From Patescibacteria group bacterium (GTDB lineage: Bacteria > Patescibacteriota > Patescibacteriia > Patescibacteriales > UBA12465), in the NCBI GenBank assembly GCA_041656935.1, contig JBBACQ010000006.1, positions 1-62,720 of the forward strand: 62,720 bases of DNA, read 5' to 3'. Position 1 is the stretch's first letter. Each line of letters begins with the position of its first letter. The translations under genes and the position numbers were made by a program. The notes under the pieces are model-generated. The model was not told the origin of the DNA and made no database searches. It saw only the letters and a list, made by a program, of their open reading frames with translations. Positions 2,783-17,203 of the stretch are shown here, piece after piece.

Positions 2783-3910
2783 TTAAGCTTTGTCTTTAGT
2801 ATAAACACTGTCAACGAAATCCTTAATGTTTTTTTGAAAATTAGAAGAGGAAAACTTCTTAGCGTGTTCCCTAATTTTATAACTATCCCAAACCTTTTTA
2901 TTATCTTTAATGTCTGTATAAAACTTTTGTACAACTGCTACAATCCCCTCGGCATTTTGCTCCTCAAAAAACACTCCGGTTTCATTTTCTATTATTGTTT
3001 CCAAAGCTCCTCCCTTTTTATAGGCAATTACCGGACGACCTGAAGCCATAGCCTCTACCTTAGAAATACCAAAATCCTCTTCCTGCGGGTTTATAAAGGC
3101 TAAGCATTTACTAAATAAACTAGCCTTATTTTCATCACTAATTCGACCTAAAAATTCAATGTTTTTACAATTGCCAGCTATTTTTTTCAATCTTTTAAGA
3201 TCAACTCCATCACCAAAAACTTTTAGCTTATAGTTCTCCCCCATTTTTTTAAAGGCCTCCACCACAATATCAACCCTCTTATAAGGGGCCAAACGACAAC
3301 CAATCAAAAAGTAATCTCCAACCTCTTTAGCTATAAAAAACTTATCAATTTCTACTGGAGGATAAATCACCACCGAATCTCTTTGATAATACTTTTTAAT
3401 TCTGTTTTTAACAGTTTCTGAATTGGCAATAAAATAATCAACTCGATCAGCTGCCAAGCGATCCCAAATTCTAATACGACTTAAAATTAAAGAGGCTATT
3501 TTTTTTATTAATCTATTATACTTTAATTCATTTATATATTGATGAGTGTCGCTCCATAAATAACGAGTTGGAGTATGGCAGTAACAAATATGAACGGTTT
3601 CTGGCAGAGTTATAACTCCCTTAGCAAAAGAACTGGTGTCAGATAAAACTAAATCATAATTTCTTAAATCAAAGAATTCTACGGCCATCGGCATAAAAGG
3701 TAGATACCATTGATAAAACCGAACTCCCCCCGGCATCTTTTGGATAATAGAGGTGTCTATTCGACGATTAGGATAGCGCTGAGCTACATTTTTCTTATCA
3801 TAAAGCAAAGTATAGATAGGCGCCTGAGGAAACATCTTAGTAAAAACCTCCAAAACCTTTTCGGCTCCACCATCTTGAGCTAAATGATCATGAATTAAAG
3901 CAACTTTCAT
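2783..3910 (-). CDS. Glycosyltransferase family 4
   Basis: Likely start MKVALIHDHL at 3910 (ORF track starts at 3940); GGAEKV, YCHTPTRYLW, EDFGISKVEAMASGRPVIA. Confidence 0.92.
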   Translation of the reverse strand: MKVALIHDHLAQDGGAEKVLEVFTKMFPQAPIYTLLYDKKNVAQRYPNRRIDTSIIQKMPGGVRFYQWYLPFMPMAVEFFDLRNYDLVLSDTSSFAKGVITLPETVHICYCHTPTRYLWSDTHQYINELKYNRLIKKIASLILSRIRIWDRLAADRVDYFIANSETVKNRIKKYYQRDSVVIYPPVEIDKFFIAKEVGDYFLIGCRLAPYKRVDIVVEAFKKMGENYKLKVFGDGVDLKRLKKIAGNCKNIEFLGRISDENKASLFSKCLAFINPQEEDFGISKVEAMASGRPVIAYKKGGALETIIENETGVFFEEQNAEGIVAVVQKFYTDIKDNKKVWDSYKIREHAKKFSSSNFQKNIKDFVDSVYTKDKA

Positions 3911-3989
3911 ATTATTATTAAAATACTTAAAACAGCTCAATTTCCACTAACTTCTTAAGTATCTAAAATATTTTAAATATTATTTTTTC

Positions 3990-5429
3990 TTATTCCACTT
4001 TTCTGTTTCTAAACACCGCCAAGGGAGTTCGAAGCAGAATTGATAAATCTAAAAGCAAAGACCAGTTTTCAATATAATAAACATCTAATTTAACCTCTTC
4101 TTCAAATAATAAATCGCTCCGGCCAGAAACTTGCGCTAAACCAGTTATCCCCGGTTTAACGGTTAAGGTTTTCTTATGATGTTGTTCATATTTAGCCACT
4201 TCTTCAGGCAAATGCGGTCGAGGGCCAACTAAGCTCATTCGACCAATAAAGACCAAAAACAGCTCCGGAAGCTCATCAATGCTCCAACGTCTAATAAATC
4301 TACCTACTCGAGTAACTCTGGGATCATCTTCAATTTTAACCATCGGACCATCTTTCCGAATATTCTTATCAGATAACTCATTATAACGCATGCTATCAGT
4401 TCCTGGAATCATGGAACGAAATTTAAAATAACGAAAAGGTTCTCCGCCCTGACCAACTCGAAAAACAAAAGACCCATCATCCCTCCGAGTAAAAAAGACC
4501 GGACCATGGGAATCAATTTTTATTAAAATAATAGTAATAATAATAATTGGCGAAAGGATAATAATAAAAATTCCGGAAAAGAAAATATCAAAAATTCTCT
4601 TAACTATTCTACCCCAACCATCCAAGGTTGTTTTTTTTACTTCAACAATAGGAATACCAGCCATCTCCGAAACCTCTGTTTTTAAAACTTTTACCTCTAA
4701 CAAATCAGCCACGTATTTAAAAGTGATATGATGTTCATTAGCAAAATCGTAAAGTCTTAGAGTCTCAATCTTACTCAAATTGGGATCACTTTGGATAATT
4801 TCATCAACCCGTTCCTCTTTATTTAAATTTTCCTTATTAAAATTAGTGATAAACATGGATAATTCTTTGGCCGTATCGATAGAAAAATCCCTAACTCTTT
4901 TAATCACCTTAAAGCCAGAATATTTTTTATTAAAAAATTCTTTAATCAAATTATCTCCGGTCTTGCTACAACCAACCAAAATAATATTTTTAACTCCAAC
5001 TCCGTAGGAATAAAAAATTTTCTTAATCCAGTAAATTAAAGTCCGACCTAAAGAAACATAAAATATTGCTAAAATCCAAGCGACTAAAACTATAAAACGA
5101 GAACTAAATAATTCTCTTTGAAAAAATATCAAAGCTACTACTAAAACAAACCCAGCCGAACAAGCCAAAAAAACACGATAAATTTCCTGGCTAAGACGAC
5201 GACTAGAGGTTGAATATAGAGCCGAAATGGCAAAAATAATTACCCAGAGAAGGGCTATAAACAAAACTACCTTAAAGTAACTCAAAAACGGTAAATCAAA
5301 TATAATTGGTCTAATCTCGGTAGTGAATTCAGAAAATCTGATAAAATAAGCTGAAATTCCAGCTAAAACTATTAAAGCAAAGTCTAATGGAACTAAAATA
5401 AAAGAAAGGAACAAATCAATCTTCTTCAT
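3990..5429 (-). CDS. Polyprenyl-phosphate phosphoglycosyl transferase (WbaP/WcaJ-like initiating sugar transferase)
   Basis: N-terminal TM helices and a C-terminal Bac_transf domain: KRIFD, FKFRSM, DPRVTRVGRFIRRWSIDELP, SLVGPRP, KPGITGLAQV. Confidence 0.93.
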   Translation of the reverse strand: MKKIDLFLSFILVPLDFALIVLAGISAYFIRFSEFTTEIRPIIFDLPFLSYFKVVLFIALLWVIIFAISALYSTSSRRLSQEIYRVFLACSAGFVLVVALIFFQRELFSSRFIVLVAWILAIFYVSLGRTLIYWIKKIFYSYGVGVKNIILVGCSKTGDNLIKEFFNKKYSGFKVIKRVRDFSIDTAKELSMFITNFNKENLNKEERVDEIIQSDPNLSKIETLRLYDFANEHHITFKYVADLLEVKVLKTEVSEMAGIPIVEVKKTTLDGWGRIVKRIFDIFFSGIFIIILSPIIIITIILIKIDSHGPVFFTRRDDGSFVFRVGQGGEPFRYFKFRSMIPGTDSMRYNELSDKNIRKDGPMVKIEDDPRVTRVGRFIRRWSIDELPELFLVFIGRMSLVGPRPHLPEEVAKYEQHHKKTLTVKPGITGLAQVSGRSDLLFEEEVKLDVYYIENWSLLLDLSILLRTPLAVFRNRKVE

Positions 5430-6032: not shown

Positions 6033-9000
6033 TTATTCAATAAATAAGTTTTTTTGGTTTTGATAGATAAATTCAGCTTCAGCTAAATTTAAACCTCCCT
6101 GCCACAATCCTAACTCATCAAAATAATAATCGCCCCCTTGTGCTTGAATATTTAGTTTTTCGATGAAATAACCATCTATCCAAGGTTTTCTAAAATGTCC
6201 TTTCAACTCACCATCAACAAATAAGCTTAAACGAAAAAGATAGGAATCATAAGACAAAACAACATTATGCCAATCTTCATCTTCAATAAAATTTTCGTTC
6301 GATAAGCTGATATTAAAGTCAGAGTTGTTGAAAAGATAAAACCAATCTCTATTACGGAAATCTAAGCCAAACAAATTTTTATCGAAACCAAGTAATTTAA
6401 TCACGAAATCTGAACTTGAAGAAACACTTTTATTCTTAAACCAGAAAGATAAAGACAAATCTTTATGATAAAAATGATTAGAAAATTGATGAGATAAGGT
6501 AATCTCAGAGTCAGGAAAGGCTAAGCAATTATTTTCATCATTAACTTTTTTTAATGAGACAGAAGAGGCATTATTCTTATCCAAATTAAAAAAATCATAA
6601 AAAGTGTCTCCAATAGTTTCATTTAAATTCCAGTAGGCTAATAATTGCTTGTCTTTAATATTAGGCTGACAAGAAGAAGAATTAAAAGGTAAATCTAATT
6701 CGGCTATTCTCTCAATTTCGCTAGAGGATAAAGCTCGATCAAAAACAGCTATTTCGTCTATTAAATTATAGCCATTGTCACCTTTAAATCCGATAGTATC
6801 AACTGAAATAAAGGAAGCTAATTCTAATTCAACCCGATAAACCTCTACTCCGTCTCGATATAATGCCCAATAATTTAAAGGCTTGTTCACCACCCAAGAA
6901 AACAGGTGCCAGTTATCATCATTTGGCCAAACTAAATCGTAATCTCTCGCTGGTGCTCCCGGAATATTATAAAAATCGGTATTGCTGGGATAAAGCTTGA
7001 TTCTAAAACTGCTCCCGGTCTGTGAATTAGAAAATCTAATCATCGGACGAGAATTATTATAAATATTTTTATAATAAAAAAATAAGGTAAAATTATTAGA
7101 ACTAAAAGAAGGATCTAATTCAGCCGTAAAATAATTATCCGGATAATATTGTTTTAATCCGCAACCAAATTTTCCATCATTCCAAAGAGAATCTATAGTA
7201 GAAGTTGTCCCGCTAACTCCGTCAAAAACTTCTGTGCCGGAACATTCATCTAGATGCCAAGAATGAATAATATTATCTGAATAAATACCAGGATCTAAAC
7301 ATAACCCCGCCGAAGGATTAGCCGAGGATGATTCTCCGGAACCATCATCTTCATCGCCAGACTGATTTTCTTCTTCTTGATCCTCTTCCTCTCCGTCTCC
7401 ATTTTCTTCTTCTAAATTATCACCATCGTTCTCTTGATAATTTAAATCTAATAAAACAAAATCTAAACTATTATTCTTAGTATTATAATTATGGCCTAAA
7501 GAATAATGATCCCCGTCATAATTCATAGAAAAAGAGGTGGAGGTGGCTAAGGCTTTTCTAATTAAAACATGATCATCTAATATTTCCGGAGCTGGTGATT
7601 CATAATAATAAACAGCTGAACCAAAACCAACTTTATCGATAATATCTTCATCGCTATCGCTGGAAATAGTGCTTTTGCCTAAATAGACGGTATAACCATT
7701 GCTGGTTAAATTAAAATCATCTCGATTAATAATAGCTTGGGCTTGAGTTTTAATTTCGTCTGAGGCTAAATCGCCCGTAACCAAATATTTACCTAAGGGA
7801 TCTATAATTAATCCTCCTGGATAAGTTCCGTCATCATCATTTCCAATTCTAGCCATTAAAGTAGGAGTTACGCTGGTTTTAGCTTTGTATAACCTCGCAC
7901 CGGCATCTTTTAAATTAATCGCCTTATTATTAGGATTGTAAATTTGAATATAATCATCTTTAGCCGTGGTATAAATTCGACTAATTAAAAGTGGCAATAA
8001 GACCTCTTCTTCTTCGTTGTTGTTGTTAGAAGTATTAGAATCGTTTTCCTGATTATTGGTCTGAGTATCAATAATATTATTAGAAGTTGAATTAGAATTA
8101 GAATTAGAATTAGAATTAGAATCGTTAATAATAGGATTATCAATATTATTGTCTACAGTCGATAAAGAGATTAATAGAAAATCAAAAAAATTATCATCAC
8201 TATCATAAGCGTTCCCCAAATTAAAATCAGTTCCGCCCTCCTTCATTTTGGTAACAGTTGAATCACTCTTAGCTTTTCTAACTAAAACATGGTTGTCTGG
8301 TATTTCTAAAGCTGACCTTTTTTCAAAGTACTTAGCTGAACCGAAACCAACTTTATCAACAATATCTTCGTCGCTATCGCTAGAAATAACACCATTGCCT
8401 AAATAAATAGTATAAGCACTACCAGTAAAGGTAAAACTGCTTTTAACGGCTATGGCCTGAGCCTTATCTTTAATAAGCGGATCGGCCGTAGTTCTAACTA
8501 TTAGATATTTGCCCTTGGCTGGGATAATAACCCCTCCTGGATAAGAACCATCATCTAAATGACCAATACGCATCATTAGAGAAGGGCTGGCGCTAGTTTT
8601 GGTCTTATACAGCCTCACTCCCATTTCTTCTAAATTAATGGCCTGATTCGTGGGATTATATAATTCTATGTAATCATCATTCAGGGTGGTATAAACCCGA
8701 CTAATCACTAATTTTTTAACCAGATCCAAGTTTTTATCGAAAATAATAGCTTCCTCGGATAGTTCTTCTTCGGTACTAAAATTAGATAATTCTAAATCTC
8801 CGTTATTGATTAAAGCTAAATCAGGCGCTAAGGCAGAAGCCTCTTTAATAGAAATAGAGCTTTTTATTTTCCCCAAAACAGCTTGGGACTCTTCGACTAT
8901 ATCAATATTAGAATCAATATTTATTTTTGAAACTCCAGTGATAGAATCACCATCTTCCTCAAGAGAGTTAACACTATAATTATAATCGTCCGACAAATTA

Positions 9001-9968
9001 TTATTAGCTATCATTTTAATGTCACTATCTGGAAGCAAGGGTTCTTCTTTCTTAAAGAAAGCAATTACCGAATGAAATAAATTATTAATCGATGATAAGG
9101 GATTATTAATAAAACTCCATTTAAAAATCATCGCTAACTCTGGGACCTTACCTCTAATCTCATCGTCACTAAAATCGCTTTCTAAATCGATATCAACCAC
9201 CACATCTTCCAGAGAGTTTTGCCAATACTGAGTTAAAGGAAAAAAGAAGTATCTTCCATTATCGTATTCCTTACCAGCATTAAAACCAAAAATTTCCGGA
9301 AAAGGAATTAAGGTCCGACGATCAGCTGATATTTTAGAAAATTCTAAACTCTTGGAGAGGCAATCTCCATTATTACTATTTATGACACTATAATTATCAA
9401 AACCATCCGGAGTAATATTAACTCCGTAGAAACGAGGATCATATTCTAATTGATCTAAATCAAGCGGATTAGAAATATTAGCACTTTCATAAATTTTTTC
9501 TGTTAAACCGACACAAATCCACTCGCCACTATTGGGGCCCTTTTGTTTTTTAAAACTAAAATCATAACCTAAATTGTTCTTAGCTAAGCTTTTAGCTAAT
9601 TCCGCTATTTTAATTCTTTGAATTTCTGATAAATTTTTAGGAATTTTAGCTCCAATTAATTCTTCCCCATTTTTAGAATTTAAAAAATACTTAGCCGGTA
9701 TTTTAATAATACCATTAGGCATCGCCTCAACAATATAATCAACTCCATTTTCTTTGCCAATATATATTCCCACATGACCGGTATAAATATTTTTTATCAT
9801 CTTGTTTTTTACTACCACTAATTCATCGGTATTATAGCCATACAAATTGCCATCATTAGAGGTACGATATAGAAGGGTTCCAACAGGCATAGCTCGAACT
9901 AAATGACCGAAAAAAAAGCTTAAAACGAAGGCGCTAGTAATAAGCGCCATTTTTTTTCTAAAATACAT
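6033..9968 (-). CDS. Large secreted protein: permuted papain-like amidase (YiiX/YebB/C92-like) + 2 lamin-tail domains + 2 LamG/ConA-like domains
   Basis: Signal peptide; GHVGIYIG..VEAM followed later by YD...WICVGLTEKIY (His before Cys, the permuted order). Two LTD copies (LVISRVYTT..DDYIELYNPT; LLISRIYTT..DDYIQIYNPN). WHLDE/YWNLNE...WHNVV...DELGLW LamG signatures. Acidic/Asn-Ser linkers. Confidence 0.75.
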   Translation of the reverse strand: MYFRKKMALITSAFVLSFFFGHLVRAMPVGTLLYRTSNDGNLYGYNTDELVVVKNKMIKNIYTGHVGIYIGKENGVDYIVEAMPNGIIKIPAKYFLNSKNGEELIGAKIPKNLSEIQRIKIAELAKSLAKNNLGYDFSFKKQKGPNSGEWICVGLTEKIYESANISNPLDLDQLEYDPRFYGVNITPDGFDNYSVINSNNGDCLSKSLEFSKISADRRTLIPFPEIFGFNAGKEYDNGRYFFFPLTQYWQNSLEDVVVDIDLESDFSDDEIRGKVPELAMIFKWSFINNPLSSINNLFHSVIAFFKKEEPLLPDSDIKMIANNNLSDDYNYSVNSLEEDGDSITGVSKINIDSNIDIVEESQAVLGKIKSSISIKEASALAPDLALINNGDLELSNFSTEEELSEEAIIFDKNLDLVKKLVISRVYTTLNDDYIELYNPTNQAINLEEMGVRLYKTKTSASPSLMMRIGHLDDGSYPGGVIIPAKGKYLIVRTTADPLIKDKAQAIAVKSSFTFTGSAYTIYLGNGVISSDSDEDIVDKVGFGSAKYFEKRSALEIPDNHVLVRKAKSDSTVTKMKEGGTDFNLGNAYDSDDNFFDFLLISLSTVDNNIDNPIINDSNSNSNSNSNSTSNNIIDTQTNNQENDSNTSNNNNEEEEVLLPLLISRIYTTAKDDYIQIYNPNNKAINLKDAGARLYKAKTSVTPTLMARIGNDDDGTYPGGLIIDPLGKYLVTGDLASDEIKTQAQAIINRDDFNLTSNGYTVYLGKSTISSDSDEDIIDKVGFGSAVYYYESPAPEILDDHVLIRKALATSTSFSMNYDGDHYSLGHNYNTKNNSLDFVLLDLNYQENDGDNLEEENGDGEEEDQEEENQSGDEDDGSGESSSANPSAGLCLDPGIYSDNIIHSWHLDECSGTEVFDGVSGTTSTIDSLWNDGKFGCGLKQYYPDNYFTAELDPSFSSNNFTLFFYYKNIYNNSRPMIRFSNSQTGSSFRIKLYPSNTDFYNIPGAPARDYDLVWPNDDNWHLFSWVVNKPLNYWALYRDGVEVYRVELELASFISVDTIGFKGDNGYNLIDEIAVFDRALSSSEIERIAELDLPFNSSSCQPNIKDKQLLAYWNLNETIGDTFYDFFNLDKNNASSVSLKKVNDENNCLAFPDSEITLSHQFSNHFYHKDLSLSFWFKNKSVSSSSDFVIKLLGFDKNLFGLDFRNRDWFYLFNNSDFNISLSNENFIEDEDWHNVVLSYDSYLFRLSLFVDGELKGHFRKPWIDGYFIEKLNIQAQGGDYYFDELGLWQGGLNLAEAEFIYQNQKNLFIE
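8089..8122. repeat. (GAATTA)5+ microsatellite encoding an Asn-Ser linker
   Basis: Five full GAATTA units plus GAAT; in-frame hexamer giving NSNSNSNSNS between LTD1 and LTD2. Confidence 0.9.
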
Positions 9969-11261: not shown

Positions 11262-11286
11262 AAAAAAAGAGCCCTAAAGGCTCTTT
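11262..11286 (-). terminator. Intrinsic terminator after the pilin array
   Basis: AAAGAGCC/GGCTCTTT 8-bp stem with 5-nt loop, followed by a T-tract on the minus strand. Confidence 0.75.
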
Positions 11287-11322
11287 AAAATGTTTTTAAA
11301 AAATAGATAAATTAATTTTGGT

Positions 11323-12393
11323 TTAATCCTTTATACAGCGGACGGAAAAACCATAGGCTCGATATTGGCCGGACAGAGTACCATTACCACCTTCCCAGAA
11401 GAACAGGCCGTAAGAATTCGTACCGCTTACAGTGCTGGCCCAATAGGAGCCATCCGAATTAACACTAGAAAGAGCGCCAAGTCCACAATTACGGTAACCA
11501 CCTACAGTAATTTTTAAAAGTGAAGCGAAGGCACCAGCTGAGTTACTCGAAGACCAGGTTTCTTGTTCGGCAGCCCATTCTGCTTCTGTTGGAATTCTCC
11601 AGCCACTTGGACAAGGATTGTTTGTCCCATCAACCCCCTGCCAAAGATTTGCGCTTTGAGGATTCCTCCAATCATAAGGACTAGAACCATAGATAATAAA
11701 ATCATCATGACCAGGAGTATCACTAGAACTTCTAGTAACGGTAGTTCCGCTTGTTCTTACTTGATGACCATCATCACCTCTACCCCATTGGAAAAGATGT
11801 CCATAAGCGTTAGCGTCGACAAGAGATTGAGCTACTCGTGTAGCTCCAAGATTACGGTCTAACCAACATTCACTGGTAGCAGAATTTAATACGGTTCCAT
11901 AAGTTACCGAGGAACCGTTATATATAAAATCAATATCATCTCCGCAAGCCCAAACCGGAGCTACATAAAAAAATCCTAAATGGGTAGCACTATAATTACC
12001 AGCTGATAAATCACTAACATTGCCACCTAAACAAAAAGTAAGGACATAAGAGCCATTATCTTCTCCAGCTTCCGTATAGACATATTCATTATTTTCTTCA
12101 GTACAATCTCCATCGGGTGGGGTTGGAGCTTGAGGATATCTTTCCATATAGACCCTACTAGTAGAACGAATAGAGCTAGTAACTGAAGTAGAAGCTGGAT
12201 AGGCCCCGTTATCATTAAAATATAATTCTAAAGCCGTTTGAATTTGTTTAATATCAGCTATTCTTTTGGCATCACGGGCTCGAGCTCGAGCATTCTGTAG
12301 AGACACTATCGCTAGAGTAGCTAGGATACCAATAATGGCTATTACGACTAATAACTCAATGAGAGTAAAAGCTTTTTTATTTTTTATTTTCAT
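11323..12393 (-). CDS. Type IV pilin-like protein (GspG-like N-domain) with C-terminal FISUMP/C-type-lectin-fold domain, copy 1
   Basis: KKA|FTLIELLVVIAIIGIL prepilin motif, ARDAKRIADIKQIQTALELY; C-terminal CWLDRNLGA, GHLFQWGR, CPSGWRIPT, YW.S, G.SVRCIKD. Confidence 0.88.
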   Translation of the reverse strand: MKIKNKKAFTLIELLVVIAIIGILATLAIVSLQNARARARDAKRIADIKQIQTALELYFNDNGAYPASTSVTSSIRSTSRVYMERYPQAPTPPDGDCTEENNEYVYTEAGEDNGSYVLTFCLGGNVSDLSAGNYSATHLGFFYVAPVWACGDDIDFIYNGSSVTYGTVLNSATSECWLDRNLGATRVAQSLVDANAYGHLFQWGRGDDGHQVRTSGTTVTRSSSDTPGHDDFIIYGSSPYDWRNPQSANLWQGVDGTNNPCPSGWRIPTEAEWAAEQETWSSSNSAGAFASLLKITVGGYRNCGLGALSSVNSDGSYWASTVSGTNSYGLFFWEGGNGTLSGQYRAYGFSVRCIKD

Positions 12394-12422
12394 GAAATTA
12401 TGATAAAAATATTAATTTTGGT

Positions 12423-13505
12423 TTAATCCTTTATACAGCGAATAGACATTCCCCATGCACGATAACTATCGTTCGTATAGGCACCACCAGCTTCAAAGGA
12501 TAAGTAATAAGATTCGGTACCAGAGACATTACTTGCCCAATATAATCCATTAGAATTGGCATGAGCAAAATCACCACTGTTATAAACGCGAATGCCCGCT
12601 ACTGGAAGTTTTAATGGTGAAGCAAAAGCGCCAGCTGGATAGTTTGAGCTCCAACTTTCTCTTTCAGCATCTAATTCTCCTTCGGTTGGGATTCTCCAAC
12701 CACTTGGGCAAGGATTATTAATCCCATTTACTCCTTGCCATAAATTATCGTTTTGTCCACTTCGCCAATCATAAGGAGAATCTGAGGCAATAATAAAATC
12801 ACCATGACTAGGATTATCACTAGAACTTAAAGTGGTAGTAGAATTGCTGGTTCTTACTTGATGACCATCATCACCTCTACCCCATTGAAAAAGATGACCA
12901 TAGGCATCAGAATCAGAAGAAGATTGGGCTACTCGTGTAGCCCCAAGATTTCTATCTAACCAACATTCTCCGGTAGTAGTATTTAATACCGTTCCATAGG
13001 TTACTGATCCACCATTATAAATAAAAGAAACATTATATCCAGCTTCCCCGCATTGAAGAGATTCGCTTATTCCTATAGGACTAGCTTCTTTGGTCCCGGC
13101 TAATAAACTAGCTACCGAACCGCCTAAACAAAAAGTAAGGACATAGGAGCCGTTATCTTCTCCAGCTTCCGTATAAACATATTCATTATTTTCTTCGGTA
13201 CAATCACCATCGGGTGGATTAGGAGCTTGGGGATATCTTTCCATATAAACCCTACTGATAGAACGAATAGAACTAGTAACTGAAGTAGAAGCTGGATAGG
13301 CCCCGTTATCATTAAAATATAATTCTAAGGCCGTTTGGATTTGTTTAATATCAGCTATCCTTTTAGCGTCTCGGGCTCGAGCTCGAGCATTTTGTAGAGA
13401 TACTATTGCTAAAGTAGCTAAAATTCCAATAATGGCAATTACTACTAATAATTCTACTAGAGTAAAAGCTGGTTCCTTAGTTTTGTTATTTTTCTTTTTA
13501 AACAT
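12423..13505 (-). CDS. Type IV pilin-like protein with FISUMP-type C-terminal domain, copy 2
   Basis: FTLVELLVVIAIIG motif; N-domain nearly identical to copy 3, C-domain similar to copy 1; ends GMSIRCIKD. Confidence 0.88.
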   Translation of the reverse strand: MFKKKNNKTKEPAFTLVELLVVIAIIGILATLAIVSLQNARARARDAKRIADIKQIQTALELYFNDNGAYPASTSVTSSIRSISRVYMERYPQAPNPPDGDCTEENNEYVYTEAGEDNGSYVLTFCLGGSVASLLAGTKEASPIGISESLQCGEAGYNVSFIYNGGSVTYGTVLNTTTGECWLDRNLGATRVAQSSSDSDAYGHLFQWGRGDDGHQVRTSNSTTTLSSSDNPSHGDFIIASDSPYDWRSGQNDNLWQGVNGINNPCPSGWRIPTEGELDAERESWSSNYPAGAFASPLKLPVAGIRVYNSGDFAHANSNGLYWASNVSGTESYYLSFEAGGAYTNDSYRAWGMSIRCIKD

Positions 13506-14680
13506 AATATTTTTTATTTATAAATTTTTTAGGACTTTTAAAAAATAGATAAATTTTAGTCTTTGAGACAACGCACTGAATTCCCGCGAGCCTGACTAAA
13601 GGAGTTTCTAGTAACTACGGCATCACTGTCATAAAGCTCGAAATATAAAGCATCAGCCCCGCTAATCGATGATGACCAAAAAATGGCACTACAACAAAGA
13701 TTAAAAAAGAAACCACCAGAAAAGAAACCAGCTGGCAAAATAGTAAAACCAGTTAAATTATTGGAGGTTTGGTCATTACCAACCCTACAAACTGTTCCAT
13801 TTGCTTCCCAGCCAGAAGTATTAGCTAAAGATTTTACTATTTGAGTAGAAACTCCTCCACACCAGTACTGACTATTAGCGCTTAAATAATCGGTTAAAGT
13901 AGTCCATTCGGTACCAGTAGGTATATGCCAACCCGAAGGACAAATCCCTTGGTTCGGTGTAGAAGTAGTGTATTGCATCATTTCGTTCCATTGGTATAAT
14001 CCTCCAGAAGTACTGCAATTACCATCTAAATTACTAAAGCAATATTTTTCTATAACAGAATTATCAGTTTGACTACTTGATCCAGATATTCTGGTCCCGA
14101 TATTTAAATTTTTAGCTATCCAACATTGAGTTCCAATTTCAACCGTAGGATAAGATTTAGAATCCCGAGAATCAATTAAATTATCACCACAAACCGCCCA
14201 AGTTTCTCCGATTTCTTCCTCCTCATCTTCGCCTCCCCCTCCAGAACCTGCAATTATACCAACCGGACTGGCCTCTTTGCTTCCAGCTATTAAACTAGCC
14301 ACTGAACCGCCTAAACAAAAAGTAAGGACATAAGAACCATTATCTTCTCCCGCTTCCGTATAAACATATTCATTATTTTCTTCGGTACAATCACCATCGG
14401 GTGGATTAGGAGCTTGGGGGTATCTCTCCATATAGACCCTACTAATAGAACGAATAGAACTAGTAACTGAAGTAGAAGCTGGATAGGCCCCGTTATCATT
14501 AAAATATAATTCTAAGGCCGTTTGGATTTGTTTAATATCAGCTATCCTTTTAGCGTCTCGGGCTCGAGCTCGAGCATTCTGTAGAGACACTATCGCTAGA
14601 GTAGCCAGGATACCAATAATAGCGATAACGACTAATAATTCGACTAGAGTGAAAGCTGGTTCCTTAGTTTTGTTATTTTT
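13100..14680. repeat. Near-identical ~390-bp 5' blocks of the pilin genes (13100-13493 and 14287-14680; a third, more diverged copy at ~12010-12375)
   Basis: Constant offsets of 1187 bp (copy 2 to 3) and 1097 bp (copy 1 to 2); differences are mostly synonymous. Confidence 0.92.
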
Positions 14681-14692
14681 AATTTTAGACAT
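13556..14692 (-). CDS. Type IV pilin-like protein with classic Fib_succ_major (FISUMP) C-terminal domain, copy 3
   Basis: FTLVE motif; GGGGEDEEEE linker; DSRD..SYPTVEIGTQCWIAKNL, GGLYQW, QGICPSGWHIPT, G.SVRCLKD. Confidence 0.88.
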   Translation of the reverse strand: MSKIKNNKTKEPAFTLVELLVVIAIIGILATLAIVSLQNARARARDAKRIADIKQIQTALELYFNDNGAYPASTSVTSSIRSISRVYMERYPQAPNPPDGDCTEENNEYVYTEAGEDNGSYVLTFCLGGSVASLIAGSKEASPVGIIAGSGGGGEDEEEEIGETWAVCGDNLIDSRDSKSYPTVEIGTQCWIAKNLNIGTRISGSSSQTDNSVIEKYCFSNLDGNCSTSGGLYQWNEMMQYTTSTPNQGICPSGWHIPTGTEWTTLTDYLSANSQYWCGGVSTQIVKSLANTSGWEANGTVCRVGNDQTSNNLTGFTILPAGFFSGGFFFNLCCSAIFWSSSISGADALYFELYDSDAVVTRNSFSQARGNSVRCLKD

Positions 14693-14740: not shown

Positions 14741-14886
14741 CTGTCATTCCCGCGCAAGCGGTCTCCAGCTTTCGCTGGAGTGACAATTCACGACTGTCAT
14801 TCCCGCGCAAGCGGGAATCCCATGAGGTTTAGACTACGATGATAAATCCTGACAAGCGGGAATCCCATGAGGTTTAGACTGCGATG
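14741..14886. repeat. Cluster of REP/dRS3-like palindromic repeats (GTCATTCCCGCGCAAGCGGGAATCC family)
   Basis: CTGTCATTCCCGCGCAAGCGG at 14741 and 14794; inverted variant TGTCACTCCAGCGAAAGCTGGAG (minus, 14785-14763); 34-nt direct repeat at 14808-14841 and 14853-14886 with 1 mismatch. Confidence 0.85.
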
Positions 14887-14926: not shown

Positions 14927-17203
14927 CTATTTCTCTCTAGCTACTCTAATTTTCTCTAAAAAAGAATCAACATTATCTCTATAAATCTCATCAATTTCTA
15001 AAATTTTCCTAGCTGTTTCCTCAGCTTTATCTAAATTACCGGTATCAAAAAGAACTAAAGCCAATTTCGACAAAATACTAACATCTTTATTTTTCTGAGA
15101 TTCTAAAATAATCTCATAAATTTCGACTAAAGTATCTAAATCATTTTTACTATAATAATATTCTTCCACTGAAGATAAAAAATCTCCCCAATTCATCAAT
15201 CTAAAACCTTTTAATTTCCCACAAATCCTGAAATTTTCCATAAACTTTTCGTGATCCTCAAATATAAAATAAAAATGGGATAATTGACAATAAGGCTCTG
15301 GCATTTGAGGATTTAAAGTTTTGGAATATTCTATAATTTCAACGGCCTCTTCTTTTTTACCAAAATTCAACAAAACATTAGATTTATTTAAATAAAGTGG
15401 AACTCTCCCAGGACTGCTCTCAATGGCCCGATCAATAGTGTCAAAAGCTAAGCTACTATAATACGATCCCTTATCTTGATCACCATTATTAAAATAAAAA
15501 CGCCCAGCTACATCATAAACTTTAAATAAACGATAAAGAGTTAAATTATCATAACGATTATATTCTTCATTTTTTTCTGCCAATTCAATAGCGAACAAAA
15601 CAATCTTTTCCGATTCAGAAAAATTACCACCGCTATACAATTGGTCAGCCGAGCTTAAAAACGAATTAATATATGATTCCCGAGAATCTCTCTCTAAACC
15701 GGTGTTATAAGAAAAAACCTCCTCATACCATTTAAAAGCCGAAAAGATACCATTCTGCTGATGGTCTTTATAAGCCTCAATAGTTTTTCGAAGCATGGTA
15801 TAAGAATTAATATTATTAATAAAGGCCAAGACAACTATAACAATTATAATCGGCGAAACAAATTTCTTCAAAATTAGGAATATTTTTTTATTTTGAATAT
15901 CATCGACTATTTCTTTAGCCCCGTCTTCATCACTCTTTTCTAAGCCCAAAAAATTAATATAACCTAATAAAACCATAAAGTACAAATAAGTGGCAAAGGA
16001 ATCAAAAACAGCTAAATTTTGCACGAAATAAGCAACCAATAAGCCAGCTACAATAGAAAACTCGACTCTATTTAGGCCCCGATAGCCAGAAGACTGAAGA
16101 CTATTTTTAAAGGCTCTTAATAAATAAATAACTATAAAAACAAAAATTGATAAATAAGCTAATAACCCCAAAATTCCAGTAGTCGTTAAAATATCAATTA
16201 AATTATTATGAGCTCGGTCAAAATAAGTCGCCCCACGATCATAATCGTAAAACTTAGGATTAAAATATTTATCAAAAATAAGAGCATAATTTCCGTGACC
16301 TACTCCAAAAACCAAATTAATCGGATGATCCACTAAATATTTTCCAGCCGCCTGATAAGAAATTAATCTAGTATTTAAAGTAATATTATCTTTAGAAAAA
16401 TCTCGTAAAGATTTGCCTACATAATTATTATCAAAAAATGGATGAGATTTAAAGGAAAATAAAATCACTAAAATAGAAACAAAAACGGCCAAAGAGCTCC
16501 AACCTATTATTTTTACCTTCTTATTTTTGTAAATAATAGAAAAGACAAAAAGACTAAATAAAATTCCAAAAATTAAACCTAATTGAGCTCCAGAAATATC
16601 AGCCCGAACAAAACTTACTAAAGCCAAAACTATTCCAATTAAATACACTAATTTAAGCCACCAGTTTTTAGTTCGAGAAATAAAAAAGGCTTGAAGAAAA
16701 ATAGAAAAAATCATAATACCACCAACATAAGCTCGGTTTCCGATACAACTTTCCGGAGTTTTTTTAACTATTCCGTAAAGAGCTATTAAAACCGTTGAAA
16801 CCACTAAGGTATTTAATAATAGATGAAAATCTTTTTTAGAACGGAAAGCAGTGATGATAAGGAAATAAAAAATTAAAAAATGAAGTAAATGAAAATAGCC
16901 TAACATTCTCTCAACATCCCCCCAAAAACTAAGATTAAAATCAACGCTAACCACTAAAGACAAAGCTATAAAAACAAAATAAACAATTAAACCGCCAGAA
17001 AGAAGAGATACTTTCGGTAGATATTTAGGAAATTTAAAAATAAAAAATAACCAAAAGACGAATAATATCTCTATAATAATATTAAAAAATATTTGTTTAG
17101 AAGAGATAAAAGGAAAAAGTAAAGATGAGAAGACAAAAAATAAAGTAACAAAGGAGACTAAAATACCACCCTTTAATATATCTAAATAAGCTTTCTGAGA
17201 CAT
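14927..17203 (-). CDS. O-antigen ligase (Wzy_C)-family membrane protein with C-terminal TPR region; candidate O-oligosaccharyltransferase
   Basis: ~12 TM helices, S..GN..Y (ESCIGNRAY), TRL..Y..A, FGVGHGNY, DRAHNNLIDILTTTGILG; helical TPR-like C-terminus. Confidence 0.8.
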   Translation of the reverse strand: MSQKAYLDILKGGILVSFVTLFFVFSSLLFPFISSKQIFFNIIIEILFVFWLFFIFKFPKYLPKVSLLSGGLIVYFVFIALSLVVSVDFNLSFWGDVERMLGYFHLLHFLIFYFLIITAFRSKKDFHLLLNTLVVSTVLIALYGIVKKTPESCIGNRAYVGGIMIFSIFLQAFFISRTKNWWLKLVYLIGIVLALVSFVRADISGAQLGLIFGILFSLFVFSIIYKNKKVKIIGWSSLAVFVSILVILFSFKSHPFFDNNYVGKSLRDFSKDNITLNTRLISYQAAGKYLVDHPINLVFGVGHGNYALIFDKYFNPKFYDYDRGATYFDRAHNNLIDILTTTGILGLLAYLSIFVFIVIYLLRAFKNSLQSSGYRGLNRVEFSIVAGLLVAYFVQNLAVFDSFATYLYFMVLLGYINFLGLEKSDEDGAKEIVDDIQNKKIFLILKKFVSPIIIVIVVLAFINNINSYTMLRKTIEAYKDHQQNGIFSAFKWYEEVFSYNTGLERDSRESYINSFLSSADQLYSGGNFSESEKIVLFAIELAEKNEEYNRYDNLTLYRLFKVYDVAGRFYFNNGDQDKGSYYSSLAFDTIDRAIESSPGRVPLYLNKSNVLLNFGKKEEAVEIIEYSKTLNPQMPEPYCQLSHFYFIFEDHEKFMENFRICGKLKGFRLMNWGDFLSSVEEYYYSKNDLDTLVEIYEIILESQKNKDVSILSKLALVLFDTGNLDKAEETARKILEIDEIYRDNVDSFLEKIRVAREK

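What the first reader, a model, noticed from the sequence alone, without database searches (positions are those of the whole stretch)
11323..14692. Tandem pilin array with a shared stalk and swapped lectin-fold tips: mosaic genes
Seen: three genes share the prepilin/GspG-like N-domain but carry different FISUMP tips. Copy 2 has the N-block of copy 3 (offset 1187 bp) but the tip subtype of copy 1 (e.g. 11752-11810 vs 12850-12908). In a 41-nt patch, copy 3 (14579-14619) matches copy 1 (12295-12335) with 1 mismatch but differs from copy 2 (13392-13432) at about 8 synonymous sites. Immediately beyond the GGGCTCGAGCTCGAGCATT core, copy 3 equals copy 2 while copy 1 differs at 6 sites. This patchwork is the signature of gene conversion or recombination among cassettes. 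Inference: a system that diversifies host-binding pilin tips by shuffling modules, loosely analogous to pilE/pilS variation.
Basis: partly seen in the sequence, partly recalled or inferred. Interest (0 to 1): 0.72.

Follow-up and report, generated by a model that had tools for sequence, protein, structure and literature searches.

The report
Mosaic tandem pilin genes, shared stalk
Three neighbouring genes for pilus subunits with binding-type tips in an ultra-small bacterium have exchanged DNA patches with one another, which looks like slow recombination within a large gene family, not a dedicated switching system like the one in gonococci.

Summary
Three complete minus-strand genes (11323-12393, 12423-13505, 13556-14692) encode type IV pilins. 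They share a nearly identical ~146-aa stalk and carry FISUMP tips of two old subtypes. One tip example is 1 nt out of register.

The mosaic is significant (patch p about 2-4e-4; stalk versus tip topology p = 2.6e-10).

The array belongs to a family of about 20 modular pilins in an 893-kb Patescibacteria-like genome. Twelve stalks show recombination (Sawyer and PHI, p < 5e-4). Across three genomes of the genus, tip-bearing stalks cluster by genome, while both FISUMP subtypes span all three. So stalks are homogenised within a genome, or tips are moved onto a common stalk.

A programmed pilE/pilS-like system is not supported:
- All copies are intact, with their own start codons and signal peptides.
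- They probably form one operon.
- Stalk dS is 0.33-0.49, so exchanges are rare.
- No silent cassettes, G4 motif, inverted segments or nearby recombinase were found.
- The genome's one DGR targets another gene.

Pilin-FISUMP fusions are already catalogued. Interest is moderate.

The parts
13556..14692 (-). c3: modular type IV pilin, 378 aa. Stalk aa 1-146, acidic Gly/Glu linker, FISUMP tip of subtype B.
   Evidence: ORF. PF07963, PF08334, PF09603 at 94.4 bits, TIGR02145 at 128.8 bits. Tip tree.
12423..13505 (-). c2: modular type IV pilin, 360 aa. Its stalk is closest to c3 and its FISUMP tip (subtype A) is closest to c1, so it is the clearest chimera.
   Evidence: Stalk c2-c3 is 94% nt identical. 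Tip c1-c2 is 71% nt identical.
11323..12393 (-). c1: modular type IV pilin, 356 aa, with a shorter leader and a FISUMP tip of subtype A.
14255..14692 (-). Stalk module of c3. The c2 and c1 equivalents are 13068-13505 and 11971-12393.
   Evidence: Direct-repeat family D1. 100% aa identity over most of aa 13-128. dN 0-0.011, dS 0.33-0.49.
14579..14630 (-). Conversion patch in c3, where c3 = c1 and not c2. Equivalents: c1 12295-12346, c2 13392-13443. c1 and c3 share GC-ending codons that are unusual for the family.
14560..14578 (.). Palindromic core GGGCTCGAGCTCGAGCATT (also at 12276-12294 and 13373-13391). It marks the switch point between the c1-like patch and the c2-like tract.
14445..14578 (-). 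134-nt tract that is identical between c3 and c2 (c2: 13258-13391). It is the longest exact tract shared by any two family members and the most recent exchange.
   Evidence: Sawyer maximum fragment of 64 polymorphic sites, p = 0.016.
11266..11286 (-). Terminator-like hairpin plus T-run after c1. None lies between the copies, so c3-c2-c1 is a probable operon.
   Evidence: Intergenic sequences.
14741..14886 (.). GC-rich hairpin repeats in the 234-nt spacer upstream of c3. Copies of a dispersed intergenic element.
   Evidence: No Rfam match.
14927..17203 (-). Context: Wzy_C + TPR membrane protein directly upstream on the same strand.
   Evidence: Conserved in 20 of 21 genomes of the genus. A pilin gene follows it in 4 of the 10 loci read.

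Best explanation
The locus is a probably co-transcribed tandem array of three complete modular type IV pilin genes.

Each product has four parts:
- a class III signal peptide;
- the hydrophobic alpha-1 helix;
- a small globular pilin module (the 'stalk'), which would let it enter a type IV pilus;
- a ~220-aa C-terminal FISUMP module (the 'tip'), presumably displayed for ligand binding.

The array is part of a family of about 20 such pilins in this 0.9-Mb Patescibacteria-like genome. The family has one stalk type and many tip types: FISUMP-A, FISUMP-B, LamG, a beta-propeller-like repeat and others.

The mosaic arose in two ways. Tandem duplication and unequal crossing-over built the array. Occasional homologous recombination between paralogues then transferred short tracts of about 50-150 nt (ectopic gene conversion). 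Together with very strong purifying selection, this keeps the stalks of one genome alike, so that every tip fits the same assembly machinery. The tips stay old and divergent. It is concerted evolution of a carrier module, not a programmed switch.

Shown: gene structure, domains, mosaic statistics, family size, stalk/tip tree conflict, presence of pilus machinery.

Inferred: RecA-type mechanism, operon, filament incorporation, ligand or host binding by the tips.
For: Domains and signal peptide.

Mosaic in the three genes.

Family:
- About 21 stalk-bearing ORFs in the genome.
- Tip Pfam types.

Recombination among 12 stalks:
- Sawyer SSCF 51839 vs 33625 +/- 1232, p < 5e-4.
- PHI 0.567 vs 0.698 +/- 0.015, p < 5e-4.
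- Other mosaic pairs share exact tracts of 102-126 nt.

Stalk tree of three genomes:
- All 14 G000 tip-bearing stalks form one clade (97/99).
- All 15 G013 stalks form one clade (96/91).
- Tipless short pilins and divergent LamG pilins group by orthology instead.
- The genome label needs 9 changes vs 25.2 when shuffled.

Tip tree:
- Subtypes A and B split at 100/100, and each contains all three genomes.
- The genome label is not clustered (7 changes vs 7.8 shuffled).

Synonymous sites agree: stalk dS has median 0.86 within G000 and 1.69 between genomes.

Database search: among 5.8 billion proteins, nine in-genome paralogues (77-100% identity) outrank the best external stalk (72%).

Strong constraint: stalk dN 0-0.011 vs dS 0.33-0.49.

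Machinery in the genome: one prepilin peptidase, two PilC-like proteins and five PilB/PilT-like ATPases.

Precedent:
- Modular pilins are widespread, and IPR011871 is listed among the 15 commonest architectures (PMC8179133). That IPR011871 is the FISUMP entry is from my memory.
- Lectin-like minor pilins mediate host binding in a cultivated Saccharibacterium (PMC11623550).
Against: - No reads could be examined, so ongoing exchange in the population is neither shown nor excluded.
- No strain-level relatives exist in the databases searched.
- Clustering of stalks by genome could partly reflect lineage-specific bursts of duplication followed by tip replacement, not conversion. That would still be stalk-tip recombination.
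- Permutation tests assume exchangeable polymorphic sites.
- The binding role of FISUMP is unproven. The fold models were mediocre (pLDDT 74 and 67) and gave no significant PDB match.
- The -1 residue of the signal peptide is Ala, not the usual Gly. From memory, this may lower processing.
Confidence: 0.75

Rival explanations
1. A dedicated, high-frequency variation system. Expressed paralogues act as mutual donors (like Neisseria opa genes, or pilE/pilS without silent copies), so that cells in one population carry different stalk-tip or tip-tip combinations. This would change host range or evade phage or predators.
For: - Recombination signal across the whole family.
- Exact shared tracts of 102-134 nt between genes with different tips.
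- Many paralogues sit at contig ends, which is compatible with assembly trouble from variants.
- The pilin content of the locus downstream of the Wzy_C gene differs among species.
- A dispersed GC-rich repeat lies next to four pilin genes.
Against: - Stalk dS is 0.33-0.49 between neighbours and has median 0.86 family-wide, so tracts are rarely renewed.
- All copies are intact and probably co-expressed.
- No silent cassettes were found.
- No G4 motif lies within 17 kb.
- No inverted repeats, and no recombinase on this contig.
- The exchanges seen homogenise the conserved stalk. They do not reshuffle the variable part.
Confidence: 0.1
2. Assembly artefact. The mosaic was created when the assembler threaded reads of similar paralogues or co-existing strains through shared repeats.
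For: - The genome is a 22-contig MAG-like assembly. At least five contigs end inside pilin stalks.
- c2 and c3 share a 134-nt exact tract.
Against: - The 52-nt patch, with diagnostic sites on both sides, is shorter than a normal read.
- In a tandem array, only one path through the shared 134-nt node uses all segments (my reasoning).
- Exact tracts shared with paralogues elsewhere are 65 nt or shorter.
- The same stalk/tip conflict appears independently in two other genomes that have only 6 contigs each.
Confidence: 0.05
3. No exchange at all. The patches reflect convergent codon choice or local rate variation in a strongly constrained helix-coding segment. The stalk/tip conflict reflects different rates only.
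For: - The patch lies in the most constrained part of the gene (alpha-1 helix).
- All of its differences are synonymous.
Against: - c1 and c3 share eight clustered GC-ending codon states (ATC, CTA/G, GCG, GTG). These are atypical for a 31% GC genome and absent from the other paralogues.
- Permutation p = 2e-4.
- Rate differences cannot reverse a topology (27:8 versus 66:227).
- Rate differences cannot make 14 stalks monophyletic while their tips are not.
Confidence: 0.05
4. The tips are diversified by another known programmed mechanism: a shufflon-type site-specific inversion (as for R64 PilV) or a diversity-generating retroelement acting on the C-type-lectin-like end of FISUMP.
For: - FISUMP domains are reported as DGR targets in MAGs (PMC11661182).
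- This genome does carry a DGR.
Against: - The DGR template repeat matches only one variable repeat, in a non-pilin gene on contig C14. It matches no pilin tip.
- All three genes are in direct orientation, with no flanking inverted repeats.
- The three tyrosine recombinases of the genome lie on other contigs.
Confidence: 0.02

Closest known systems
Modular type IV pilins (Streptococcus sanguinis PilB/PilC; survey in Raynaud et al. 2021, PMC8179133)
   Same: [quoted passage not shown]
- The survey lists IPR011871 among the 15 commonest architectures, many from candidate-phyla bacteria. That IPR011871 is the FISUMP entry is from my memory.
- LamG-type tips also occur in this genome, as in PilC.
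   Different: - Here there are about 20 such genes per 0.9-Mb genome, sharing one nearly identical stalk and arranged partly in tandem.
- No experimental data on incorporation or binding.
- The within-genome homogenisation of the stalk was not found in the papers searched.
Lectin-like minor pilins PilX1/PilX2 of Nanosynbacter lyticus TM7x (PMC11623550)
   Same: - Patescibacterial type IV pilins with large C-terminal accessory domains.
- They are implicated in binding host cell-wall glycans.
- That genome also carries two pilus systems. Here there are two PilB-PilC pairs.
   Different: - Different tip folds (beta-jelly-roll and beta-propeller, versus FISUMP).
- One copy each, not an expanded family.
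[quoted passage not shown]
Neisseria pilE/pilS antigenic variation
   Same: - Pilin genes with conserved and variable parts.
- Non-reciprocal transfer of short tracts between copies gives mosaics.
   Different: - No single expression locus.
- No promoterless 5'-truncated silent cassettes.
- No G4 motif nearby.
- Exchanges affect mainly the conserved stalk.
- Divergence shows a low rate.
Concerted evolution of complete outer-surface paralogues (Neisseria opa genes, Helicobacter pylori babA/babB/babC). Recalled from memory, not checked in papers here.
   Same: - Several complete, independently expressible paralogues with conserved frames and divergent binding regions.
- They exchange segments by homologous recombination, giving chimeras.
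   Different: - Those systems show exchange within strains and during infection, and are combined with phase variation.
- Here only the evolutionary footprint is seen.
R64 shufflon (PilV C-terminal switching by Rci)
   Same: The C-terminal part of a type IV pilin determines partner specificity, and alternative C-termini are encoded side by side.
   Different: - The shufflon uses site-specific inversion of segments flanked by sfx repeats, with one promoter-proximal constant part.
- Here there are three full genes in direct orientation, no inverted repeats and no local recombinase.

Membership tests
Type IV pilin (class III signal peptide protein) | Short basic leader, cleavage site, N-terminal Phe, Glu5 and a ~20-residue hydrophobic helix (N_methyl / TIGR02532 motif) | tested here: met
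   PF07963 at 29-34 bits (cut-off 21.2) and TIGR02532 at 26-32 bits (cut-off 16.3) in all three. The sequence reads ...A|FTL(V/I)ELLVVIAIIG. The N-terminal 60 aa match solved pilins at E 1e-6 to 1e-10. The -1 residue is Ala, not Gly.
Type IV pilin (class III signal peptide protein) | Prepilin peptidase, assembly ATPase and platform protein encoded in the same genome | tested here: met
   Peptidase_A24 x1, T2SSF in two proteins, T2SSE x5.
Type IV pilin (class III signal peptide protein) | Processing by the peptidase and polymerisation into a filament | not testable with these tools
   Needs biochemistry or imaging.
Modular pilin (pilin module + grafted functional module) | Globular pilin module followed, after a linker, by an independent domain that also occurs outside pilins | tested here: met
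   - The stalk ends where the tipless 156- and 162-aa pilins of the same genome end.
- The tips are 50-63% identical to FISUMP domains of non-pilin proteins of Bacteroidota and others.
- The AF2 model shows a helix plus beta-sheet pilin module, then a separate C-terminal domain.
FISUMP / Fib_succ_major domain (PF09603, TIGR02145) | Score above the curated cut-offs | tested here: met
   PF09603 scores against a cut-off of 33.9: c3 94.4, c1 40.2, c2 34.4. TIGR02145: only c3 passes (128.8 vs 41.65); c1 scores 30.2 and c2 28.5, both below. Subtype A is therefore a divergent branch.
   Foldseek against the PDB gave no match at E <= 0.001. The best hits for the c3 tip were snake-venom C-type-lectin-like chains at E 0.3-3 and TM 0.2-0.35. 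There is a weak Lcl_C/DUF1566 hit in c3 (E 0.007). Models have pLDDT 67-74.
pilE/pilS-type antigenic variation | One expressed locus plus promoterless, 5'-truncated silent cassettes | tested here: not met
   All three copies, and about 14 further paralogues, have a start codon, leader and full stalk.
pilE/pilS-type antigenic variation | G-quadruplex-forming initiator next to the expression locus | tested here: not met
   No G3+ x4 motif with loops of 12 nt or less lies closer than window position 31601.
pilE/pilS-type antigenic variation | High-frequency variants within a population | not testable with these tools
No protein of 90% identity or more occurs elsewhere in the database. dS of 0.33-0.49 argues for a low rate.
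Shufflon (site-specific inversion of pilin C-termini) | Invertible segments bounded by short inverted repeats, plus an Rci-type recombinase | tested here: not met
   Only AT-rich chance pairs and the internal palindrome were found. The Phage_integrase hits lie on contigs C1, C5 and C21, none on C6.
Diversity-generating retroelement target | Variable repeat at the 3' end of the gene matching a template repeat, with adenine-specific differences | tested here: not met
   The genome's TR (C14:277-389) matches only C14:4432-4544, with 12 of 12 mismatches at TR adenines. It matches no pilin tip.
Multigene family under concerted evolution by gene conversion | Significant clustering of concordant sites, and paralogues closer within than between genomes for one gene segment only | tested here: met

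The most novel reading that the evidence does not exclude
The roughly 14 dispersed and tandem modular pilin genes form a recombination network that is still active within populations. RecA-mediated tract transfer between expressed paralogues would continually create new stalk-tip and tip-tip combinations. An obligate episymbiont with a 0.9-Mb genome would then vary its attachment specificity without silent cassettes or a dedicated recombinase. The dispersed GC-rich hairpin repeat next to several pilin genes might serve as an initiation site.
Probability: 0.1. Interest if true: 0.75.

Novelty: new member of a known kind. Interest (0 to 1): 0.4.

Why it matters
Ultra-small Patescibacteria live attached to other microbes, and type IV pili are their best-supported attachment organelle. 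This genome spends about 2% of its genes on pilins that share one carrier module and display many different putative binding modules.

Within each genome the carrier modules evolve together, while the binding modules are older than the species. That suggests a simple rule: the carrier must fit the cell's own pilus machinery, and the tips form an exchangeable repertoire.

This gives a concrete set of candidate host-recognition proteins. It also gives a testable prediction that any tip works on any stalk of the same genome. It does not reveal a new molecular mechanism.

Tried and rejected
- **Strain-level relatives.** None found. The best external match is 62-64% identical for the whole protein and 72% for the stalk. 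Metagenome and genome DNA scans were therefore not spent.
- **Fold assignment of the tips.** Two AF2 models and two PDB Foldseek searches gave nothing significant. PDB sequence searches hit only the pilin N-terminus.
- **DGR hypothesis.** A DGR exists, but it targets a non-pilin gene.
- **Shufflon hypothesis.** No inverted repeats and no local recombinase.
- **G4 initiator.** None near the array. My first pattern attempt failed on syntax.
- **Restriction-site idea for the CTCGAGCTCGAG core.** CTCGAG is not depleted in the genome (127 found vs 64 expected), and the double site also occurs in another pilin and in one non-pilin place. Dropped.
- **Horizontal transfer of tip A from Bacteroidota.** The 62% identity looked striking. 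But tip B shows similar cross-phylum identity of about 50%, so this is a property of the FISUMP family and not evidence of a specific transfer.
- **Upstream GC-rich repeat as a known RNA.** No Rfam match.
- **Donor for the c2 version of the patch.** No other paralogue is closer than c1. Exchange between c1 and c3 is therefore the simpler reading.


Full report
**1. What is there**

The stretch 11323-14692 holds three complete genes on the minus strand:
- c1: 11323-12393, 356 aa.
- c2: 12423-13505, 360 aa.
- c3: 13556-14692, 378 aa.

Each product carries the prepilin N-terminal methylation motif, a GspG-like region and a Fib_succ_major (FISUMP) domain. PF09603 scores are 94.4 (c3), 40.2 (c1) and 34.4 (c2) bits against a cut-off of 33.9. 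Only c3 passes the stricter TIGR02145 cut-off.

The first ~60 residues match solved type IV pilins at E 1e-6 to 1e-10. Nothing in the PDB matches the tips by sequence.

The proteins are 100% identical over most of residues 13-128 and then diverge.

The genes are 50 and 29 nt apart. The only terminator-like hairpin follows c1, at 11286-11266. I infer one operon. It may be read through from the Wzy_C + TPR gene at 14927-17203, which lies 234 nt upstream.

**2. Check of the observation**

- c3 14579-14619 differs from c1 12295-12335 at 1 of 41 positions, and from c2 13392-13432 at 8 of 41.
- The core GGGCTCGAGCTCGAGCATT sits at 12276, 13373 and 14560.
- In the next 60 nt, c3 equals c2 (0 differences) and c1 differs at 6.
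- The repeat offsets are 1097 and 1187 bp.
- One slip: the tip example 11752-11810 vs 12850-12908 is 1 nt out of register. It gives 46/59 mismatches as written and 5/59 when shifted.

In a three-way alignment, the informative sites along the stalk read 11111111311x1 | 23x322232222 | 1111111122331111111 32321. Here 1 means c2 = c3 and 2 means c1 = c3.
- A run of eight '2' sites uninterrupted by '1' occurs in 2e-4 of permutations. A 3SEQ-like maximum descent gives p = 4e-4.
- Stalk sites favour (c2,c3) over (c1,c2) by 27:8. Tip sites favour (c1,c2) by 227:66. Fisher p = 2.6e-10.
- In the patch, c2 carries the AT-ending codons common to the other paralogues. c1 and c3 share GC-ending codons (ATC, CTA/G, GCG, GTG) that no other paralogue has. 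So exchange between c1 and c3 is the simpler reading.
- Directly after the core, c2 and c3 share a 134-nt exact tract. It is the longest between any two family members.

**3. The wider picture**

The window is contig C6 of an 893-kb, 22-contig, 31% GC genome. External hits are labelled Patescibacteria or Falkowbacteria.

The genome holds about 21 ORFs with this stalk:
- Eight have FISUMP tips.
- About seven have LamG-type tips (one of them doubled).
- One has a beta-propeller-like repeat.
- Two or three have unassigned beta-rich tips.
- Two are tipless pilins of 156 and 162 aa (C4:11570-12037 and C4:12220-12705). These are probably the major subunits.

At least five contigs end inside a stalk.

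The machinery is present: one prepilin peptidase, two PilC-like proteins each next to a PilB-like ATPase, and further PilT-like ATPases.

**4. Recombination in the family**

For 12 core stalks (402 ungapped columns, 209 polymorphic), one search gives:
- Sawyer's SSCF: 51839 against 33625 +/- 1232 in permutations (p < 5e-4).
- Largest concordant fragment: 64 polymorphic sites, between c2 and c3 (p = 0.016).
- PHI: 0.567 against 0.698 +/- 0.015 (p < 5e-4).

Other pairs with different tips share exact tracts of 102-126 nt. The C3 and C9 fragments are themselves patchworks of two donors.

**5. Stalk and tip histories disagree across genomes**

I took all stalk-bearing genes of two better-assembled genomes of the same genus, G011 and G013.

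In the stalk tree (two-genome version):
- All 14 tip-bearing stalks of this genome form one clade (97/99).
- All 15 tip-bearing stalks of G013 form another (96/91).
- The tipless pilins (93/83) and a divergent LamG-pilin group (100/97) cluster by orthology across genomes.
- The genome label needs 9 changes against 25.2 when shuffled (0 of 200 shuffles as low).

In the FISUMP tip tree:
- Two subtypes separate at 100/100. Subtype A holds c1, c2 and C1:82903. Subtype B holds c3, C2:40732 and others.
- Each subtype contains members of all three genomes.
- The genome label is not clustered (7 changes against 7.8 shuffled).
- Tip A also sits on a different stalk class in G011 (L041).

Synonymous sites agree. 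Stalk dS has median 0.86 within this genome, 1.1 within G011, and 1.69 between them, plus 8 saturated pairs.

In a search of 5.8 billion proteins with the stalk alone, nine in-genome paralogues (77-100% identity) outrank the best external protein at 72%.

So the tips are older than the species and the stalks are younger. Either stalks are homogenised within a genome or tips are moved onto a common stalk. Both are stalk-tip recombination.

**6. Rate**

NG86 estimates:

| Comparison | dN | dS |
|---|---|---|
| Stalk, c2-c3 | 0 | 0.33 |
| Stalk, c1-c3 | 0.011 | 0.40 |
| Stalk, c1-c2 | 0.011 | 0.49 |
| Tip, c1-c2 | 0.25 | 0.95 |
| Tip, c3 vs c1 or c2 | 0.81-0.97 | saturated |

Two things follow. 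The near-identity of the stalk proteins owes much to very strong purifying selection. And exchange is episodic and mostly old, apart from the 134-nt tract. This is not what a fast switching system leaves behind.

**7. Programmed mechanisms considered**

- pilE/pilS: no silent or truncated cassettes, and no G4 motif within 17 kb.
- Shufflon: all genes are in direct orientation, with no flanking inverted repeats. The three tyrosine recombinases lie on other contigs.
- DGR: the genome does have one, on contig C14.
  - RT is at 701-1681, template repeat at 277-389 and variable repeat at 4432-4544.
  - All 12 of 12 mismatches fall at template adenines.
  - The variable repeat ends a 346-aa non-pilin ORF, and the template matches no pilin tip.

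**8. Artefact?**

I consider this unlikely, for four reasons.
- The 52-nt patch with diagnostic flanks is shorter than a read.
- Only one path through the shared 134-nt node uses all segments of a tandem array (my reasoning).
- Exact tracts shared with paralogues elsewhere are 65 nt or shorter.
- The same stalk/tip conflict is seen in two 6-contig genomes.

**9. Function**

The AF2 model of c2 (pLDDT 73.7) shows the long N-terminal helix, a beta-sheet pilin module and a separate C-terminal domain. The c3 tip model has pLDDT 66.9.

Foldseek against the PDB gave no significant hit. The top hits for the c3 tip are snake-venom C-type-lectin-like chains at E 0.3-3. The 'lectin fold' is therefore plausible but unconfirmed here. 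A DGR survey reports FISUMP domains as targets alongside C-type-lectin and DUF1566 domains (PMC11661182).

Both tip subtypes are 50-63% identical to FISUMP domains of non-pilin proteins of Bacteroidota and others.

By analogy with two studied cases, I infer that the tips are displayed binding modules and that the family is a repertoire of attachment specificities:
- modular pilins of S. sanguinis (PMC8179133);
- lectin-like minor pilins needed for host binding in TM7x (PMC11623550).

**10. Comparison and novelty**

The pilin-FISUMP architecture is already catalogued. IPR011871 is listed among the 15 commonest modular-pilin architectures; that IPR011871 is the FISUMP entry is from my memory. 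The fusion is annotated in hundreds of Patescibacteria proteins.

Gene conversion among paralogues is ordinary. What I did not find described is the genus-wide pattern of one stalk per genome with many old tips. It is a useful evolutionary observation, not a new mechanism.

The array itself is lineage-specific. The Wzy_C + TPR gene is conserved in 20 of 21 genomes of the genus. What follows it differs: other pilins in G015, G011 and G008, and non-pilin genes in G002, G003 and G010.

**Verdict**

- The locus is a new member of a known kind.
- Interest is 0.4.

Noticed in passing
Same genome, contig C14 (not in the window): TR 277-389, RT ORF 701-1681, VR 4432-4544 at the end of ORF 3511-4551: A textbook diversity-generating retroelement. 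The 113-nt TR/VR pair has 12 mismatches, all at template adenines. The target is a 346-aa non-pilin protein. The last 76 nt of the contig repeat 3536-3611, which hints at a second target copy.
   Followed up: partly
window 14741-14886 (spacer upstream of c3): GC-rich hairpin repeats (CTGTCATTCCCGCGCAAGCGG x2, GGGAATCCCATGAGGTTTAGACT x2) in a 31% GC genome. The element occurs at 8 loci in the genome. Four of these adjoin pilin genes (C3:345, C4:11390, C6, C10:13997). No Rfam match.
   Followed up: partly
window 14927-17203: A Wzy_C + TPR membrane protein lies directly upstream of the pilins. It is conserved in 20 of 21 genomes of the genus. A pilin gene, of differing kind, follows it in 4 of the 10 loci read.
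   Followed up: partly
Genome contig ends: C3:1-316, C9:1-846, C10:34840-35351, C11:26959-27759, C4:78-1226: Contigs break inside or next to pilin stalks, so the family is a main cause of assembly fragmentation. Its true copy number may be higher than counted.
   Followed up: no
window 11294-11325, 12408-12425 and 13536-13558: The 3' flank of c1 is a composite. TAAACCAAAATTAAT is as after c2, followed by TTTATCTATTTTTTAAAA as after c3. This looks like a footprint of the unequal crossing-over that built the array.
   Followed up: no
c3 aa ~150-162 (window ~14207-14245); also C2:40732 and C10:34840: Subtype-B pilins carry an acidic Gly/Glu-rich linker (GSGGGGEDEEEEIGE, SSEEEEEEEI, EEEGVPEEEEE) between stalk and tip. 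Subtype-A pilins lack it.
   Followed up: no
c1-c3 signal peptides (window 12360-12393, 13460-13505, 14647-14692): The residue before the mature Phe is Ala (..PA|FTL, ..KA|FTL). The tipless pilins on C4 have the canonical Gly. From memory, this may mean less efficient processing and low abundance.
   Followed up: no
window 6033-9968: A 1311-aa protein with a Peptidase_C92 permuted amidase domain, a lamin-tail domain (Pfam scored one stretch) and two LamG matches, two genes downstream of the array. The LamG module type is also used as a pilin tip elsewhere in the genome.
   Followed up: no
Genome C7:19140-20708: A pilin with the same stalk carries about seven ~48-aa repeats (..ATVMKFNGSSWENVGSAGFS..), probably a beta-propeller tip. 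Its leader reads GFNLIELL instead of FTL.
   Followed up: no
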